64,000 nt of DNA. Origin: Nitrospirota bacterium. GTDB lineage: Bacteria; Nitrospirota; JACRHJ01. Of this stretch, positions 26,501 through 47,500 are shown one piece after another. The position numbers are program-made. Where the stretch lies: the NCBI GenBank assembly GCA_963845245.1, contig CAWJRJ010000015.1:1-64000 (forward strand), written 5' to 3'. The first letter of the stretch is position 1. The number at the start of each line of letters is the position of its first letter.

Positions 26501-29500
26501 AACAGTTAATGTTTCAGCTATGGGCAGATCTGAACTCCAACACTACAACTGGAACGCGGTATTATCCGGTGGTAACTGCAACGCTTGCCATACGACTGCG
26601 AGCACATTCCTTTCGCCCAGTTTCCGAAATGATAATTCATTCTGCTACTCCTGCCACAACCCGGCCGGGGTGTCGCACAATCAGGCCCTGTATGGCAAGA
26701 ACCATTCAGTCATGGTGAACGCTTCTTCTGGCGGCGCAAAGATTCCAATATACGGAAACATTACCACAGGCGAGTACAACAATCAGCCCTTCTCACGGTT
26801 GGACGCGGGTAAGGTCGTCTGCGTCACATGCCATAACCCGATGCAGAAGTCTGAGGACATGGGTAGGACGTGGGAGTACACGACAACCTTAGATCAGAAA
26901 ACATATACCATGCAGAACGGAGGCTGGGCGGGATACAAGAACCTAGTCCCAAAAGTATACAGGGACACAACCCTTTGGTCCGGGCCAACATACTCCAAGA
27001 TTAAAAAGAACTACCTGGTAGATCCTGCGGAATACAACTACAACGAGACTAATGGAACGGTTACGTTCCAAGTAGCACAGGCCCCGACTTCTTACATATA
27101 CGTCTCGCTTGATTATCAGTACCTGCGGGCTTCTAATGCGAACAACGCACTCTGCGCCGACTGCCACACGCAGATAACGCACAAAGGAGAGAACTGCCAG
27201 ACCTGTCATACAGCGCACAACACCGCTAACATAAAGGGCATATGGGAGTCATTGAGAGCTCCCAACCGTACATCGATAGCAGTGAAGTTCCTGCGGTATA
27301 CAGGATTTGGTTCCTTCGCTGACGGAGACGCAATTTATAACGGCATTTGTGAGGTCTGCCACGCGCAGACGAAGTATTACAGGAGAGACGGCTCAGGCTT
27401 TGTGAACCATTCTGGCGGCGTAAACTATGACAGGAAGGATTGCACTGCCTGTCACAGCCACTCGACCGGGTTTGCGAGATAATTAAATAGCTTCATTAAC
27501 ACTTTGTTAAAAGGAAAGCTTGGGATGAATGGTTTTTTTTATTCTGGTAAGTTTGTTGAATTGGGACGTATGGGCCGCAAAAAACTTGATTGGCCGGGTT
27601 GCCACAAGTCCCGTGAGATGACCGAGGAATTGTGCCTGGAATCAATGAATGTTCTGGCTGAATGCTCTTTATGCAATGTAAGAAGGAGAGAACTTGCACG
27701 CATATATAGGGCTCGGGCTAGAGCCAGGGCCAGGAAAACCGGTGAGGTTGATTTAAAAGCATAGTATCGGCACCTCTTGGGCCAATACGTACAGTGAAAC
27801 GTACACTAGAGAATAAAATTCTTACTAGTCTACACAATGGAACAATGGGTGAGTGAGTTTCCTTATCGTTGATTTACAAATAGAAACAAAGAGACACAAT
27901 GGAACTCAATTAATCCAAGAGCTTGGCATTGCTCTGGCAGTCAAGAGGTCAGGGGTTCGATCCCCCTCAGCTCCACCAAAAGTTCACTGCTAAATCAAGC
28001 AGTTAAAATCACGAGATAGGCGGCTTTCCCCAGACTTTCCCCAAAGGTCTCTGCGGTGGCCGCCTTTCTTGTTTTATGCCGCTACGCAAAGTCTTCACCG
28101 AAGTACCCCCGGATTTTATCGTTGTCGGTCTCCACGCCTGGTATGTAGCTTCCGTAGACTTCGAAAACCATCTGTTTGGAGCCGTTCCCCACCCTTAATA
28201 CCAGCCTGTTTGGTCAAAACTACGGGCCAAGTCCGTAGGTCTAACTGCAGAATTTTGAGCATTAACACTCAGGAAAGGCTATCTTTTGAGCGTAAATAAT
28301 ACGCTTGAGCAGGTCGTATACATGACAAGGTTTATTAGATTTACCCTATAAGATGTTGTTATTTTTAAGGTAAGGTGTTTACTGTATGGCATGGTACAAT
28401 ATTTGCATGAAAAAATAGGTATAAGGCTGTATTCTAATCAAAACTTTAACTATTCTTTACAGGGGGCTTGACGCCTTTCTCAAAAATCGGTAGTGCATCA
28501 CAGGAGAAGGGCATTATACATATAGGACTACGAAATACCTCCCGATAGCCCGCTAATTAGCAGGTGGCTTAATGAGCAGGAAAGCCATAATAGCAAGCGG
28601 CATTATAGCGTTGTTGCTGGCAGGCAACACGGTTTGGGCGGTAACGGTAAACTCGGTCCATACAAACTACAGACCGGGTTACACATCAGGGTGCAGCACC
28701 AGCACTGCATGTCATACGATATTTCAGGGTAGCTTCCTTCCAGCACAACTCGGCACTTACTCCAATAGAGCGGACTATACGGCTTTCTGCCTTTCATGCC
28801 ACAACCCGTCGGGCGAGGCTCATGAAAAGTCAGCCGGGTCCCCTTCCTCGATAGGCTACAAAAACCTTACCGGTTTCAGGATCAATACAAGCTACAGAGG
28901 GGTATCCCATAGCTGGACCGGCAAGATCGGCAACGCCGGCACCCGCACCCCGACGGCTACGGGTTTCGGAGGCACGACCTACATGCCGGACCAGAAGGTA
29001 GTCTGCCAGACCTGCCACGGCGCCATGGGGAAAACGACGGTCGACAACGTCCCCCTCGCGTCATCAAGCCGTCCGGTGGTCGACACTACAACAGATGCCG
29101 ACAGGAGGAAGTACCGGCTGTTCGGCAACTATGCGCCTACCGGGCAGTACCTCAACCAGTACACCAAAGTTTACAGGGACAACGGCTACTGGCAGAATGT
29201 GGAAGAGCCGCGCAAGAGAAAACAGTACCTGGTGAACCCGTCCGAGTATGTCTACAACAACCTCAGCGGGACGGTAACATTCAATGTAGCACAGCCCTCC
29301 TCGGCCTATATCTATGTTGAGATACCGGAGCCGTACCTGCGTGTCGGGAATTCCGCCAACCAGGTATGCGTTGACTGCCACAACGATCGAAGCGGAGGCA
29401 TGGTCAACCACCCCGGTGATATCCTGAAAAGATCCCAGCACCCGGTAGGCGTCCCGTTCGGGCACGTCAACGGTACTGGCGAGACACTCCGCAACATCAC

Positions 29501-44500: not shown

Positions 44501-47500
44501 AACGGATACAGGTTGTACCGCGCCGACGTGAACGTCGAACCTTTCCTGACCGATAAATGCATCACCGAGAACAACATCGGCAGCGCTCAGGTAGCTGTGA
44601 ACCTTATATCCTATTATATGAACAGCGCGGCGGATGAAGGCGGGACGCCCGGAAATACATATTACTATGCGCTTCGGGCCTGGGACGACGAGAACAACAT
44701 GTCGAACATATCGAACTGCGCCGTCGCAACCGTCAGGACTACCGAGCAGGACACAACGTCTCCGACATGGAGGGGGGCGTCTCTTACGGCGATACAGCAG
44801 CCCTACCCCGACATAGACCTGATATGGACATCGGCTGCCGACCTGAACGACTCCGGTGGCGCGGGTAGCATAGACCATTACGAGGTATACAGAAGCCAGA
44901 CAAGCTTCAGCTCGACCACAGACCCCGGCGTGTCCATGATCGCGACCGTATCCGGCATAAGGAACTCATATTCTGACAGGACCGGCGACCACGAGGCGAC
45001 GTATTACTACGCGCTGGTGGCGGTGGATGCAGCGACGGCGCACAACAGGAGCGCGATCTCAAACGTAGCGTCTGCACAGGTGGCGCCTGCCCCGTCGCCT
45101 GACAATGCGCCGCCCTCGATACCCGGCTCACTTGCGGTATCTACCGGCGTCTACCCGGACATCAACATATACTGGACGGCCTCGACTGACGTGGACGATT
45201 CGGGCACGGGCCAACAGCTCCTGTACTACAAGCTCTACCGGTCCCGCTATCCGCTCGACATAACCGAAGCCAACAAGCAGAACCCCGCCGAGGTTGATAC
45301 GGTCATGATAGCGTGCGATGCCACCAGCTATACCGCAAGGGGCATCGGAGGGACGCAGTACAACTACAGGCTCGAGGCGTTCGACATGGCAGGAAACGGG
45401 TCGGGACTGAGCGTTCAGCTTATGGGACAGGTGGCGCCTGCCCCGTGCGTGGATTCCACCCCGCCGCGCGCCCCTGCCGACCTGAACGCGACAATAGGCC
45501 CCTCGCCCGATATAGACCTTTCATGGACCGCATCCATAGACGACGGAGGCGTCTGCTCCGGGCAGATCGACCATTACCTTCTCTACAAGGCCAATTACGA
45601 GATAAAGGCCGACACGGACCTGCGGTCGCTTCCGCATATCTATGTAGGCGGGAAGGGCACCTCGTATACCGATTCCACAGGCATACCCAACACGCAATAC
45701 TGGTATGTCCTGACCGCTGTGGACACCTCGGCAAACGAGTCGGCCAGCTCCAACATCATAACGGGGACTACAGGGGCGGACACGATGGCGCCCGCGTCGG
45801 TTACCGACCTGAAGGCTACCCCGGGCACGGGCGAGATAAATCTTACCTGGTGCAGGCCTTCGGACAACGTCGGTATCCACCATTATGAGATCTACAGGAA
45901 AGAACAGGGTACTATCATGACGGACGCGGATATAACGCTGGCGAACAAGTTGACCTGCTTCGCGAATGGCGGTGTCTGCCTGTCATGCAACGATGCGGCC
46001 GTCCTGGCCGGCCATACTTACAGCTATGCGGTCATCGCGGTGGACGGTTCAGGCAACCGTTCGACGATCAGCAGAGGGCAGCACGACGGCGATACCGTCG
46101 GGATAATGCCATGAAAAACTTTAATCGGCTTGTAACGGTTTTATTGTCTCTTGCTCTGACGGCGGTCTTTGCCGCATCGTCACGCGCGTCGGTAGATACT
46201 CCGCCGGGTGTCTATTTCGGGGAGACCATCTTTGAGGTAAAAGACGGTTCGATCATAGCTCCCAGGGCAAGGCATCTGCCATTTGAGCCCCCAAAAGAAT
46301 TCGGGCGGTTGAAGGCCGGCTGGACCCCGATGAAGGATGGCGAATATGTAGCGTATGATACCGACGGGATATTAGACACGGAGCAGGGGACATTCGAGGT
46401 TGACCTGGTGCTTCTGGGGGATGAAGGGAAACCCTTGATAACGCACAATTACGTTCAAGCGCTCATCACCTTGTATGACGGCAGGGAAAAGGCCTTCTTT
46501 ACCATAGGCATAAACAACACCGACCTGGTGATAGGCAGTTTCCCGATCCACCCGATGCTGATGGAGGATGCGTTCGGCGGGGCCAGCTTCCCTTACCTGT
46601 CCAAGCTCGACGGCCCGCTCAGAGAAGGGACGGAGTTGAAAGTCACTGTAACCTGGGGACCTGGCCCCTCGGATGGCCGTGTCTATGTCAACGGCAGATA
46701 CATGGGCCTGGATTCAAGGAGGGGGCCGAAGGGCCGCGGCGCGCCGCCGGGGTATCAGCCGACAGCCTCATTCAGTTCGTTCCTCAAAGGCTTTGAAGGG
46801 TTTACGGGTGGTCCGGTAGGGCCGCCAAAGACGCTCACCATAGGCAGGATAGGTACCGACAGGAAGATAAACAGGACGGGCTCTCCCATGACGGTGGCTA
46901 TTAAAAGCGTCAGGCTGTCGGGACGGGCGGAGGTCCCGTAGGTCGGGGGTCAGGTTGTTTGTATCTCAGTACTTCTCTTCCAGGAAGTTCCGTGCATAAT
47001 GCTCCACAGCCTCGTCGGTGTGGAGCATCGCGTCCATCTGCCGGGTATACGATATCAGCCTTCCGAGCTGGTCGAGTATGGGCTCCATCCCATCCTTTGA
47101 GAGGTTCGAGAGTTTTGCTATTATCAGGTCGCCCTTTTCTGTCACATTGAAACCGAAATTCCCCAGAATTATGGAGATCAGATGTATCCTGCGCGAGCGT
47201 TTCGTTATATCGGTCGCACCGCCGGTAAACCTGAAATAGATATGGTTGTTCCTTGCCGTCTCGCTCATGTAGCAGTCGAGCATGTTGAAGTGGTAGCCGA
47301 ACTTCAGGCTCAGGTTGACGTACTCAGCCGATACCACAGCTACGTTATATCCCGCATATTCCCCGGCGTTGGCTGTTATGTCCGGCATCCGCATCATGCT
47401 CGACAGGAAGTCGCCCGCGGATAGGGCTACAATGTCTGAGTGCCAGACCCCTTCATGTGTCATGCCACCCAATATGGCCCGAAGCGGCATGGAGGATACG

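What a model noticed while it worked through the whole genome (the two positions that open the first line are those of the whole stretch)
28572..46114. Six giant multihaem cytochromes in two pairs of paralogous loci, one fused to 1,860 aa of carbohydrate-binding modules
Six secreted proteins of 1,875-3,958 aa carry 43-57 haem-binding motifs each (295 in all): g00968/g00969 (C15:28572-46114), g01701/g01702 (C18:81018-95577), g02245 (C21:69459-80501) and g02687 (C24:129612-141101); in g00969 all 45 motifs lie in the first 2,100 residues and the rest holds fn3, two CBM_4_9 and an F5/8-type-C lectin domain. I read these as single-polypeptide 'wires' tens of nanometres long that are tied to the cell's own exopolysaccharide by lectin modules, giving a sulfate-reducing, N2-fixing Nitrospirota a conductive matrix. 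A cytochrome wire covalently joined to glycan-binding modules has not been described.
Evidence so far: Calls 20, 127: motif counts (CxxCH+CxxxCH+CxxxxCH) 43, 45, 43, 51, 56, 57; 44 proteins of the genome have >=3 CxxCH (571 motifs). Call 85: the loci are paralogues, not strain duplicates (g00968/g01701 66% id, g00969/g01702 58%, g02245/g02687 54%, flanking 12-haem g02237/g02691 68%). Call 114: Pfam on g00969: Paired_CXXCH_1 2e-84, MtrC/MtrF domain II/IV 1e-49, fn3 3e-15 (2399-2483), CBM_4_9 2e-11 (2804-2936), F5_F8_type_C 1e-13 (3095-3205); on g02245: GSu_C4xC__C2xCH in 8 stretches. Call 127: signal peptides. The heptahaem-tagged propeller g00967 is the gene just upstream of g00968.
(Added by a program. 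Inside this text positions count along the whole contig: contig position 1 is position 1 of the stretch shown here. "Call 12" and the like, gene names such as g00115 and contig names such as C1 are that model's own, and its searches are not shown. The text may have been shortened before it was handed on; [...] marks where a part breaks off. The agent that wrote the report below was given it as the finding of a first reader that could run no searches.)

Follow-up and report, generated by a model that had tools for sequence, protein, structure and literature searches.

The report
Giant cytochromes with lectin-studded tail
Two neighbouring genes of an uncultured Nitrospirota bacterium encode huge secreted proteins with 43 and 45 haem sites, and the larger ends in a long stalk carrying sugar-binding-type modules, probably to tether an electron-carrying protein to a sugar-coated surface outside the cell.

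Summary
Window 28572-34199 (1,875 aa) and 34238-46114 (3,958 aa) are intact ORFs with 43 and 45 haem-binding motifs. The genome-wide count of six giants with 295 motifs is reproduced.

The anatomy needs correcting. The 1,860-aa tail is mainly about 12 fn3 units. Three of them carry a nested jelly-roll module: two CBM_4_9-like and one CBM32/discoidin-like. A fourth CBM_4_9-like module lies inside the haem region (residues 335-475).

The fusion is not an assembly artefact. Twelve database relatives share it, and the gene pair stands in the same order in 4 other loci. It was found in 3 of 401 Nitrospirota genomes searched, all in one family.

The paralogue g01702 also has the fn3 tail, without nested modules and broken by four frame changes in an error-rich assembly.

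The modules come and go between relatives and diverge about twice as fast as the haem scaffold.

Best reading: an extracellular electron-transfer pair whose larger member is both conductor and adhesin. The ligand, location and conductivity are untested.

Giant cytochromes fused to putative sugar-binding domains are already in print for ANME archaea (PMC9012536). This is therefore a new bacterial variant of a known kind.

The parts
17318..20497 (+). MalT/SARP-like regulator (BTAD + TPR), upstream of the cluster
   Evidence: Pfam BTAD 72 bits plus TPR families. NCBIfam MalT-like 190 bits, below its cut-off. A role in this cluster is inferred from position only.
20768..21577 (+). histidine kinase fragment (HisKA + HATPase_c)
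   Evidence: Pfam
21969..27482 (+). g00967: 1,837-aa surface protein with YncE-type and RCC1-type propellers, Ig-like domains and a C-terminal heptahaem module
   Evidence: Pfam, NCBIfam, 7 CxxCH at residues 1537-1825
26526..27479 (+). heptahaem 'tag' module of g00967
   Evidence: tblastn finds 6 further copies at 44-62% identity on C7, C13, C18, C29, C17 and C30. Weaker copies (29-36%) include the N-terminus of g00968 (BLASTP E 4e-28).
27483..28571 (.). 1.1-kb gap without a convincing ORF
   Evidence: Only ORFs <=86 aa. Weak sub-threshold tmRNA-like Rfam match at 27847-27978 (18.3 bits against a gathering score of 47). ARAGORN finds nothing.
28572..34199 (+). g00968: secreted 43-haem cytochrome, 1,875 aa
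   Evidence: 15 close homologues at 59-88% identity
28572..28640 (+). g00968 signal peptide (type I, no lipobox Cys)
   Evidence: Read from the translation: MSRK, a hydrophobic core, then VWA|V. No predictor was run.
28707..29966 (+). g00968 N-terminal module homologous to the heptahaem tag
30969..34196 (+). g00968 tandem hexahaem units of about 250 aa (4 full periods plus part of a fifth)
   Evidence: Periodic spacing of the haem motifs (roughly 48, 52, 26, 28, 24, 70)
34238..46114 (+). g00969: secreted 45-haem cytochrome with fn3/lectin tail, 3,958 aa; starts 39 nt after g00968
34238..34318 (+). g00969 signal peptide (type I, no lipobox Cys)
   Evidence: Translation. The junction A|DVTGRPHD is conserved in 8 of 11 full-length relatives; the other 3 have A|YVPGKPHD.
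34319..35239 (+). haem block 1 (8 motifs)
   Evidence: 72-75% identity to the close relatives
35240..35662 (+). CBMa: CBM_4_9-like jelly roll looped out of the haem region
   Evidence: Pfam 22.9 bits, below the 25.9 cut-off. 31% identical to CBMb. Hypervariable: 29-71% identity against 72-80% for the flank.
35663..40537 (+). haem block 2 (37 motifs) with MtrC/MtrF domain II/IV-like and DmsE/MtrA-like stretches
   Evidence: PF22113 168.5 bits overall, with 4 of 15 sub-windows above 30 bits. TIGR03508 213.5 bits.
40718..41707 (+). three plain fn3 units
   Evidence: Pfam fn3 at residues 2163-2249, 2286-2376 and 2399-2483
41864..42262 (+). CBMb: CBM_4_9 module nested in an fn3 loop
   Evidence: Pfam 29.6 bits. 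In P0009, P0010 and P0015 the host fn3 runs uninterrupted.
42635..43057 (+). CBMc: CBM_4_9 module nested in an fn3
   Evidence: Pfam 31.5 bits. AF2 model pLDDT 83.4. Foldseek CBM4-2 3jxs/2y64/4bj0 TM 0.67-0.68 and CBM22 4xup 0.66.
43490..43882 (+). F5/8-type-C (discoidin, CBM32-like) module nested in an fn3
   Evidence: Pfam 54.7 bits. PDB sequence hits 4zxe/2rv9 E 2.5e-5. Foldseek 4zy9/4zxe TM 0.86-0.87 at rmsd 2.0-2.1, and 2v72 TM 0.82. Present in the tail of 13 of 13 family proteins mapped.
44015..46054 (+). six distal fn3-like units
   Evidence: Recurring F-strand motif (and reading). Only weak Pfam fn3 hits. 62-69% identity to the close relatives.
46055..46111 (+). conserved C-terminal motif STISxGxxxGDTxxxxP-COOH
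   Evidence: Present in 14 of 14 family proteins and at the end of the broken C18 tail. Only these two ORFs of the genome carry it. Function unknown.

Best explanation
g00968 and g00969 are a conserved two-gene unit encoding secreted giant c-type cytochromes for extracellular electron transfer.

Export (inferred). Both are exported by Sec, loaded with haem in the periplasm, and passed to the cell surface.

Conducting part (inferred from motif density and family resemblance). The 43-haem protein and the first 2,100 residues of g00969 (45 haems, one per about 47 residues) form chains of closely spaced haems. These chains relay electrons over tens of nanometres between outer-membrane porin-cytochrome conduits and a distant donor or acceptor.

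Tail (architecture shown). The last 1,860 residues of g00969 carry no haem. They form a stalk of about 12 fn3 units. Three units have a beta-jelly-roll lectin-type module nested in a loop (two CBM4/9-type, one CBM32/discoidin-type). A fourth module loops out of the haem region.

Proposed function (inferred). The stalk and modules act as the adhesin part. They tether the conductor to a glycan-bearing surface, which could be the cell's own envelope or matrix, or another cell. The modules are exchangeable address labels on a conserved conductor. Which glycan is bound, if any, is not known.
For: Haem sites and export signals. 43 and 45 haem motifs occur where about 0.2 and 0.1 are expected from composition. 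There are enough His for bis-His ligation: 105 in g00968 and 122 in residues 1-2100 of g00969. Both have type I signal peptides without a lipobox.

Haem families. PF22113 (MtrC/MtrF II/IV) scores 168.5 bits and TIGR03508 (DmsE/MtrA decahaem) scores 272 and 213 bits, both over cut-off.

Supporting machinery in the genome. It encodes cytochrome c assembly proteins. It has an MtrB/PioB porin (315 bits) beside a 10-haem MtrA-like gene on C11, and a weaker pair on C16. It has secretins, with a T2SS/type IV pilus-like cluster 6 kb from the C24 giant locus.

Conserved gene pair. The order g00968-type then g00969-type holds in the window, in the C18 paralogous locus, in L005 and in 3 of 3 metagenome loci.

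Conserved fusion. All 12 database relatives found carry discoidin and/or CBM families together with cytochrome families. The haem count is 45 in 9 of 10 full-length members and 51 in the tenth.

Lectin folds. Pfam scores are 54.7, 31.5 and 29.6 bits. The AF2 model has pLDDT 83.4. Foldseek gives TM 0.86-0.87 to chitosan-binding CBM32, 0.79-0.82 to galactose-binding CBM32, and 0.66-0.68 to CBM4-2/CBM22.

Nesting. Relatives that lack CBMb have an uninterrupted fn3 at that place. The C18 tail skips exactly the three modules.

Address-label behaviour. Modules are present, absent or differently placed among relatives. They are 30-71% identical where the haem scaffold is 64-75%. CBMa of P0007 groups with P0002 (71%), whereas the scaffold tree puts P0007 with P0009/P0010 at 100/99 support.
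Against: There is no evidence of location beyond the signal peptide. No porin, secretin or T2SS gene lies beside the pair in the window.

The CBM_4_9 scores are close to the cut-off, and CBMa is below it. Ligand-binding residues were not assessed. Jelly rolls and fn3 units also serve protein binding or act as mere spacers.

The paralogue's tail has no nested module, so the modules are not needed for the core function.

The AF2 model of a haem block failed (pLDDT 30.1), so the continuity of the haem chain across inserts is untested. No close solved structure exists by sequence (best 24.8 bits).

No expression data are available. The assembly has many frame errors.
Confidence: 0.55

Rival explanations
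1. First reader's specific form. The lectin modules bind the cell's own exopolysaccharide, so that the giants form a conductive matrix around the cell.
For: Lectin folds are supported. Modules sit at several points along the protein, including within the haem region, which would suit multipoint embedding. In Geobacter, exopolysaccharide is reported to anchor c-type cytochromes (passage and reference list of PMC10599522, citing Rollefson 2011).
Against: No polysaccharide-synthesis cluster is linked to the pair. The only nearby glycosyltransferase is 12 kb away on the other strand. The ligand is unknown. Fast-diverging, swappable modules fit a variable foreign target as well as an own polymer.
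Confidence: 0.2
2. Partner recognition. The tail recognises surface glycans of another cell, such as a syntrophic partner, and plugs the conductor into it for direct interspecies electron transfer. The variable modules would set partner specificity.
For: The modules are hypervariable and are exchanged against the scaffold tree. The genome has dsrAB, as do sulfate-reducing partners in such consortia. The same idea was proposed for the pectin-lyase-like domain of ANME MHC-C (PMC9012536).
Against: There is no evidence of any partner or consortium. The family is known only from metagenome bins.
Confidence: 0.15
3. The jelly rolls and fn3 units do not bind glycans. They would be structural spacers, protein-protein docking sites, or binders of minerals, metals or flavins, in the way of the beta-barrel domains I/III of MtrC (recalled).
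For: The CBM_4_9 scores are marginal (22.9-31.5 bits). The modules are dispensable in the paralogue and in several relatives. An unassigned insert of about 200 aa with no Pfam match occupies the haem region of 6 of 10 full-length relatives.
Against: The discoidin module is universal in the family's tail (13 of 13). Its nearest solved relatives are all sugar-binding CBM32 modules.
Confidence: 0.2
4. Periplasmic conductor. The proteins stay in the periplasm, with the tail bound to peptidoglycan.
For: Only Sec export is evident from the sequence. Peptidoglycan is a glycan. An OmpA/Pal-like gene lies 5 kb upstream.
Against: Arrays of fn3, CBM and discoidin modules are typical of extracellular proteins (established knowledge, not tested here). 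A rod of 12 fn3 units plus 45 haems would greatly exceed the width of the periplasm unless it lay flat.
Confidence: 0.06
5. Artefact. The fusion or the lengths come from misassembly or indel errors.
For: The assembly is error-rich. ATP synthase alpha and gamma, a PEP-utilising enzyme and a pyridine nucleotide-disulphide oxidoreductase are split in the window. dsrA has an internal TAG and nifH is split. The C18 tail has four frame changes.
Against: 12 database relatives and 4 independent loci show the same architecture, colinear from the first to the last residue.
Confidence: 0.01

Closest known systems
ANME archaeal giant multihaem cytochromes (ANME MHC-A/B/C; Chadwick et al. 2022, PMC9012536, passages read)
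   Same: Both are single polypeptides with tens of haem motifs (up to 86 in ANME) fused to non-haem surface modules. MHC-C carries a domain of a carbohydrate-binding or carbohydrate-degrading fold, proposed to recognise a partner's cell wall.
   Different: The ANME proteins are archaeal. Their modules are S-layer, peptidase-M6-like or pectin-lyase-like domains at the N-terminus, and some have a C-terminal membrane helix. Here the host is bacterial, the tail is a C-terminal fn3 stalk with nested CBM4/9 and CBM32 modules, and Pfam finds no S-layer or pectin-lyase family. Sequence relationship to the ANME proteins was not tested.
MtrC/OmcA/MtrF outer-surface decahaem cytochromes with MtrAB porin conduits (Shewanella)
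   Same: PF22113 (MtrC/MtrF II/IV) and TIGR03508 (DmsE/MtrA) stretches recur along both giants. The genome has MtrA/MtrB-like pairs.
   Different: The giants carry 4-5 times more haems, have no lipobox and are not adjacent to the porin genes. The best PDB sequence match is only 24.8 bits to 6r2q chain A, which the file names 'Cystathionine beta-synthase'. I recall this entry as the Mtr complex; that is unverified.
Extracellular giant MHCs of 'PCC3' clusters (He et al. 2017, PMC5566968, passages read)
   Same: They are extracellular cytochromes with very many haem motifs (63-85), read as molecular wires.
   Different: Those are encoded with a porin and a periplasmic MHC in one cluster, mostly in Proteobacteria. 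The passages read mention no lectin modules.
Geoalkalibacter ferrihydriticus 24-haem cytochrome with two N-terminal fn3 domains (PMC12016550, passage read)
   Same: It is a multihaem cytochrome fused to fn3 adhesion-type domains, encoded next to a larger (38-haem) cytochrome.
   Different: It is 1,208 aa with two fn3 units at the N-terminus, and no CBM or discoidin module is reported.
Exopolysaccharide anchoring of c-type cytochromes in Geobacter sulfurreducens (Rollefson 2011, seen only as cited in PMC10599522)
   Same: The functional idea is the same: cytochromes held in a polysaccharide matrix.
   Different: In Geobacter the cytochromes are small and not known to carry lectin modules. Here the putative glycan binder is part of the cytochrome polypeptide.
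P0123, an unnamed 874-aa database protein
   Same: It has 23 CxxCH motifs followed by two discoidin domains, so it is an independent cytochrome-discoidin fusion.
   Different: Its haem part is not alignable with g00969 beyond the motifs. It has no fn3 stalk and is a fifth of the size.

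Membership tests
Multihaem c-type cytochrome | Multiple CxxCH (or variant) haem-attachment motifs | tested here: met
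   43 and 45 motifs; PF09699 at 385 and 277 bits
Multihaem c-type cytochrome | Export to the periplasm (signal peptide) and a haem-attachment system in the genome | tested here: met
   N-termini read (no predictor run); PF01578 at 3 places (4 matches, the two on C13 adjacent) over cut-off
Multihaem c-type cytochrome | Covalently bound haem, redox activity | not testable with these tools
   Needs expression, haem staining and spectroscopy
MtrC/OmcA-type outer-surface decahaem lipoprotein | Pentahaem domains II/IV | tested here: met
   PF22113 at 168.5 bits on g00969; 4 of 15 sub-windows above the 30-bit cut-off. The family was not reported for g00968 itself, but it was for its paralogue g01701.
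MtrC/OmcA-type outer-surface decahaem lipoprotein | Lipoprotein signal (lipobox Cys) | tested here: not met
   No Cys at the predicted cleavage sites
MtrC/OmcA-type outer-surface decahaem lipoprotein | Encoded with MtrA/MtrB | tested here: not met
   The MtrB-like genes are on C11 and C16, not in the window
CBM32 / F5/8-type-C (discoidin) module | Sequence family and beta-sandwich fold | tested here: met
   PF00754 at 54.7 bits and PF22633 at 47-48 bits; 4zxe E 2.5e-5; TM 0.86-0.87 at rmsd 2.0-2.1
CBM32 / F5/8-type-C (discoidin) module | Binds a carbohydrate | not testable with these tools
   The conserved residues seen (the DGN..T.W motif, W, R) are fold residues. The binding loops were not assessed.
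CBM_4_9 (CBM4/9/22-type) module | Sequence family over Pfam's cut-off | tested here: met
   CBMb 29.6 and CBMc 31.5 bits against 25.9. CBMa is below the cut-off at 22.9 and is tied to CBMb by 31% identity.
CBM_4_9 (CBM4/9/22-type) module | Jelly-roll fold like solved CBM4/22 | tested here: met
   For CBMc only: TM 0.66-0.68, rmsd 3.6-4.2. PDB sequence matches are marginal (E 0.03-0.05).
ANME-type S-layer/pectin-lyase MHC fusions | S-layer (DUF1608) or pectin-lyase-like domain | tested here: not met
   No such Pfam family on g00969
Polymeric cytochrome nanowires (OmcS/OmcE/OmcZ type) | Filament built from many copies of a small multihaem subunit | not tested
   These proteins did not appear in the PDB sequence searches. 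The giants are single long polypeptides. Polymerisation cannot be judged here.

The most novel reading that the evidence does not exclude
A 'lectin-addressed wire'. One 4,000-aa polypeptide is both conductor and adhesin. Swappable glycan-binding cassettes are nested in fn3 loops and between haem blocks. These cassettes decide which surface the conductor is plugged into: the cell's own sheath, or the glycans of a specific partner cell. That would make extracellular or interspecies electron transfer partner-specific. Recombination would exchange the cassettes on a conserved 45-haem scaffold, much as phages exchange receptor-binding modules.
Probability: 0.15. Interest if true: 0.85.

Novelty: new variant of a known kind. 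Interest (0 to 1): 0.62.

Why it matters
It is largely unknown how extracellular cytochromes are held in place and aimed at a target. In Geobacter, polysaccharide is reported to anchor cytochromes, but no binding module is known. In ANME archaea, a sugar-fold domain on giant cytochromes has only been guessed to recognise partners.

Here the putative binder is part of the cytochrome itself. It belongs to well-studied lectin families and forms small, separable modules of about 130-140 aa. These can be expressed alone and put on glycan arrays. The question 'what is the wire attached to?' therefore becomes directly testable for an uncultured groundwater lineage.

The presence and absence of modules, and their swapping on a constant 45-haem scaffold, also gives a natural experiment on what the modules are for.

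Tried and rejected
AF2 of a haem block (g00969 residues 700-1300, 12-row alignment) gave pLDDT 30.1 and pTM 0.17. It is unusable, and no fold search was made on it.

PDB sequence searches with the haem regions gave only weak hits of 24.8, 24.9 and 21.3 bits.

The ESM Atlas search with residues 1500-3300 returned only discoidin clusters at scores of 0.76-0.81, below the level at which a hit counts. No cluster carried a cytochrome family. The first attempt was over the size limit.

The look-up of sequencing runs for the broken C18 tail listed no run. I therefore could not lay reads to decide whether its four frame changes are errors. No RNA holder was listed.

The idea that 45 haems equal nine MtrC-type pentahaem domains was dropped. 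Only 4 of 15 sub-windows exceed Pfam's cut-off.

The C-terminal motif as a general sorting signal was dropped. Only these two ORFs of the genome carry it.

The insert of about 200 aa in the haem region of some relatives has no Pfam family even at E<=1. I had provisionally called it LamG-like in scripts and notes, and that name is unsupported.

The tmRNA-like Rfam match in the 1.1-kb gap is below threshold, and ARAGORN finds nothing.

Paper searches for a described cytochrome-CBM or cytochrome-discoidin fusion:
- 'multiheme cytochrome' + 'carbohydrate-binding module': 7 papers, none on a fusion judging by title and abstract.
- 'multiheme' + 'discoidin': 0 papers.
- 'multi-heme cytochrome' + 'carbohydrate-binding': 6 papers, listing only.
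- 'multiheme cytochrome' + 'lectin' + 'extracellular matrix' + 'electron transfer': 7 papers, listing only.
- 'giant' + 'multiheme cytochromes' + 'Nitrospirota': 1 paper.
- 'Thermodesulfovibrionia' + 'multiheme cytochromes' + 'extracellular electron transfer': 3 papers.
Subscription journals are not covered, and no supplements were read.

Earlier notes of this scan hold nothing on this locus.

Full report
**1. What is there**

The window (contig C15 of a 2.88-Mb, 37-contig assembly) holds three long same-strand ORFs in a row:
- 21969-27482, 1,837 aa, g00967
- 28572-34199, 1,875 aa, g00968
- 34238-46114, 3,958 aa, g00969

g00968 has 42 CxxCH + 1 CxxxCH. g00969 has 44 CxxCH + 1 CxxxxCH, the last at residue 2094. 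From the proteins' own Cys and His content I expect about 0.2 and 0.1 CxxCH by chance, so the motifs are not chance.

My stop-to-stop scan of the genome reproduces the six giants (57, 56, 51, 45, 43, 43 = 295 motifs). It finds 46 ORFs with at least 3 CxxCH. The stated paralogue identities hold: 65.6%, 58% and 54.1%.

Both proteins begin with a type I signal peptide and have no lipobox cysteine. In g00969 the mature N-terminus DVTGRPHD is conserved in relatives.

**2. Anatomy of g00969**

Pfam on the whole protein and on overlapping sub-windows, plus a module map made with profiles of its own modules, give this order:

| Residues | Feature |
|---|---|
| 1-27 | signal peptide |
| 28-334 | 8 haem motifs |
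| 335-475 | CBM_4_9-like jelly roll (CBMa, 22.9 bits, below cut-off, 31% identical to CBMb) |
| 476-2100 | 37 haem motifs, with MtrC/MtrF II/IV-like and DmsE/MtrA-like stretches |
| 2161-2490 | three plain fn3 units |
| from 2491 | three fn3 units, each interrupted by a module: CBMb 2543-2675 (29.6 bits), CBMc 2800-2940 (31.5 bits), F5/8-type-C 3085-3215 (54.7 bits) |
| 3260-3939 | six more fn3-like units |
| 3940-3958 | short conserved C-terminal motif |

The tail is therefore a fn3 stalk with nested lectin-type modules, not 1,860 aa of CBMs. One module sits inside the haem region.

The nesting is shown directly. Relatives without CBMb (P0009, P0010, P0015) have an uninterrupted fn3 at that place.

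An AF2 model of residues 2775-3290 (13-row alignment, pLDDT 83.4) matches solved sugar-binding modules:
- chitosan-binding CBM32: 4zy9/4zxe, TM 0.86-0.87, rmsd 2.0-2.1, 29-30% identity
- galactose-binding CBM32: 2v72, TM 0.82; 4a41/4a44, TM 0.79
- CBM4-2 and CBM22 for CBMc: TM 0.66-0.68

Sequence search of the PDB agrees for the discoidin module (E 2.5e-5). It is marginal for CBMc.

**3. g00968 and g00967**

g00968 is haem motifs throughout, one per about 44 residues. Its C-terminal 1,100 residues show a six-haem period of about 250 aa, with four full periods and part of a fifth.

Its first 470 residues or so are homologous to the C-terminal heptahaem module of g00967 (27% identity, E 4e-28). 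That module also ends six other large proteins of this genome at 44-62% identity.

g00967 itself carries YncE-type and RCC1-type propellers and Ig-like domains. It is not conserved beside the pair elsewhere: in L019 a tRNA synthetase gene and a T2SSE/MshE-type ATPase gene lie upstream instead.

**4. The fusion is real, conserved and rare**

A search with the tail found 8 relatives. A search with the haem region found 12 in all, at 47-70% identity over the haem region (P0004-P0011, P0014-P0017). Every one carries cytochrome families together with discoidin and/or CBM families. A full-length member of one cluster has 4,249 aa, and one member is deposited as 'discoidin domain-containing protein [Nitrospirae bacterium]'.

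The haem count is 45 in 9 of 10 full-length members and 51 in P0014. It is also 51 in the paralogue g01702.

The order g00968-type then g00969-type recurs in L005, in 3 of 3 metagenome loci and in the C18 paralogous locus.

Among 401 species genomes sampled across the phylum, the distal tail was found in 3 at E<=1e-30 (G000, G002, G009). All three are in one family, where it was found in 2 of the 11 other members (likewise). I count G002:C3 and L005 once, since they have the same length and layout.

Outside the family, I took the 150 best relatives of the discoidin module among 1.84 billion representatives. Only the family's own representative and one unrelated protein carry haem motifs. That protein is P0123, 874 aa, with 23 CxxCH and two discoidin domains. 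A distant cluster (L006) has giant cytochromes of 1,876, 1,263 and 4,191 aa followed by a 1,652-aa Laminin_G_3 protein.

**5. The paralogue**

g01702 ends at C18:95577 in this assembly. However, homology to the g00969 tail continues to C18:99368 through four frame changes, and it ends with the same C-terminal motif.

The matches skip exactly the three nested modules while the DNA is contiguous. That tail is therefore fn3 only. g01702 has instead a CBMa-type module at residues 701-853.

The assembly is error-rich. In the window, the ATP synthase alpha and gamma genes, a PEP-utilising enzyme gene and a pyridine nucleotide-disulphide oxidoreductase gene are split. Elsewhere dsrA has an internal TAG and nifH is split. 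The breaks in the C18 tail are therefore probably errors, but I could not check reads.

**6. The modules behave as exchangeable parts**

Presence among the family:

| Module | Present in |
|---|---|
| tail discoidin | 13 of 13 |
| CBMc | 10 of 13 |
| CBMb | 7 of 13 |
| CBMa at about residue 335 | 7 of 10 full-length |
| unassigned insert of about 200 aa (no Pfam family) | 6 of 10 full-length |

P0015 has a CBM, and P0016 a discoidin module, at about residue 700 within the haem region.

Identity to g00969 is 64-75% in the haem blocks of the seven nearer full-length relatives and 62-69% in the distal fn3 of the six closest. It is only 30-71% in CBMa, 45-67% in CBMc and 43-59% in the discoidin module.

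CBMa falls into three types that are 29-51% identical to each other (29-42% leaving out the intermediate P0005), while the flanking haem block is 72-80% identical throughout. P0007's CBMa goes with P0002 (71%), although the scaffold tree joins P0007 to P0009/P0010 with 100/99 support. This points to module exchange or very fast divergence. I did not test recombination formally.

**7. How it most likely works**

Shown:
- haem-motif density, signal peptides, the conserved gene pair, the conserved fusion and the lectin folds
- cytochrome c assembly genes in the genome
- two MtrA/MtrB-like porin-cytochrome pairs
- secretins, with a T2SS/type IV pilus-like cluster near another giant locus

Inferred:
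- the giants leave the periplasm and form long haem chains that carry electrons between such conduits and a distant partner or mineral
- the fn3 stalk with its modules tethers g00969 to a glycan-bearing surface

If extended, 12 fn3 units and 45 haems would each span some tens of nanometres. That is my estimate from recalled dimensions of fn3 domains and of the Mtr haem chain, not a computed result.

The direction of electron flow, the ligand and the location are open. The rivals are binding to own exopolysaccharide, recognition of a partner cell, a non-glycan role, and a periplasmic location. They are listed with odds in the Rival explanations section.

**8. Comparison with what is known**

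Size alone is not new: up to 85 and 86 haem motifs have been reported (PMC5566968; PMC9012536). Fusion to fn3 is known on a small scale (PMC12016550).

Fusion of giant cytochromes to S-layer and pectin-lyase-like domains is described for ANME archaea, with the suggestion that the sugar-type fold recognises partner cells. Polysaccharide anchoring of cytochromes is described for Geobacter.

What I found in no paper searched:
- a bacterial family with CBM32 and CBM4/9 modules nested in an fn3 stalk and between haem blocks
- the turnover of those modules

I therefore file it as a new variant of a known kind.

Noticed in passing
window 26526-27479; also G000 C7:1902-2852, C13:61621-62574, C18:154292-155239, C29:7062-8024, C17:256631-257590, C30:41775-42731: A heptahaem module of about 318 aa ends (in one case apparently begins) seven large, otherwise different surface-type proteins of this genome at 44-62% identity. 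Weaker copies open g00968, g01701 and the 12-15-haem proteins that flank the other giant loci. It looks like a shared electron-entry or docking cassette.
   Followed up: partly
window 6747-8495, 46966-49516, 61125-62718; G000 C17:132499-133671, C21:20719-21544: Many core genes are split or truncated: ATP synthase alpha and gamma, a PEP-utilising enzyme, a pyridine nucleotide-disulphide oxidoreductase, dsrA with an internal TAG, and nifH in two frames. Yet 23 kb of g00967-g00969 is unbroken. Errors seem unevenly spread along the assembly.
   Followed up: partly
window 27483-28571: A 1.1-kb stretch between g00967 and g00968 has no ORF over 86 aa. It holds a sub-threshold tmRNA-like Rfam match at 27847-27978 (18.3 bits), and ARAGORN finds nothing. 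It may hold the promoter or a leader of the cytochrome pair.
   Followed up: partly
window 46055-46111 and G000 C18:99309-99365: The extreme C-terminus STISxGxxxGDTxxxxP-COOH is conserved in all 14 family proteins across 39-80% identity. It occurs in no other ORF of this genome. Its function is unknown; it may be a family-specific export or anchoring signal.
   Followed up: partly
G000 C24:148001-166000 (L015): 6 kb from the C24 giant cytochrome locus lies a cluster with a secretin (broken), PilM/N/O, a T2SSE ATPase with MshEN and receiver domains, T2SSF, a pseudopilin and a cohesin-domain protein. A T2SSE/MshEN ATPase also lies 2.5 kb upstream of the pair in L019, and an MshEN-DUF202 protein lies at window 52501-54267.
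   Followed up: no
L006 4705-32931: A distant uncultured bacterium has a row of giant cytochromes (1,876, 1,263 and 4,191 aa) followed by a 1,652-aa Laminin_G_3 (concanavalin-like lectin fold) protein. Here the lectin-fold partner is a separate gene rather than a fusion.
   Followed up: no
window 10799-16275: Upstream of the regulators, three class-I/cbb3-type c-cytochrome genes (one with 5 CxxCH) and an OmpA/Pal-like gene follow the ATP synthase operon.
   Followed up: no
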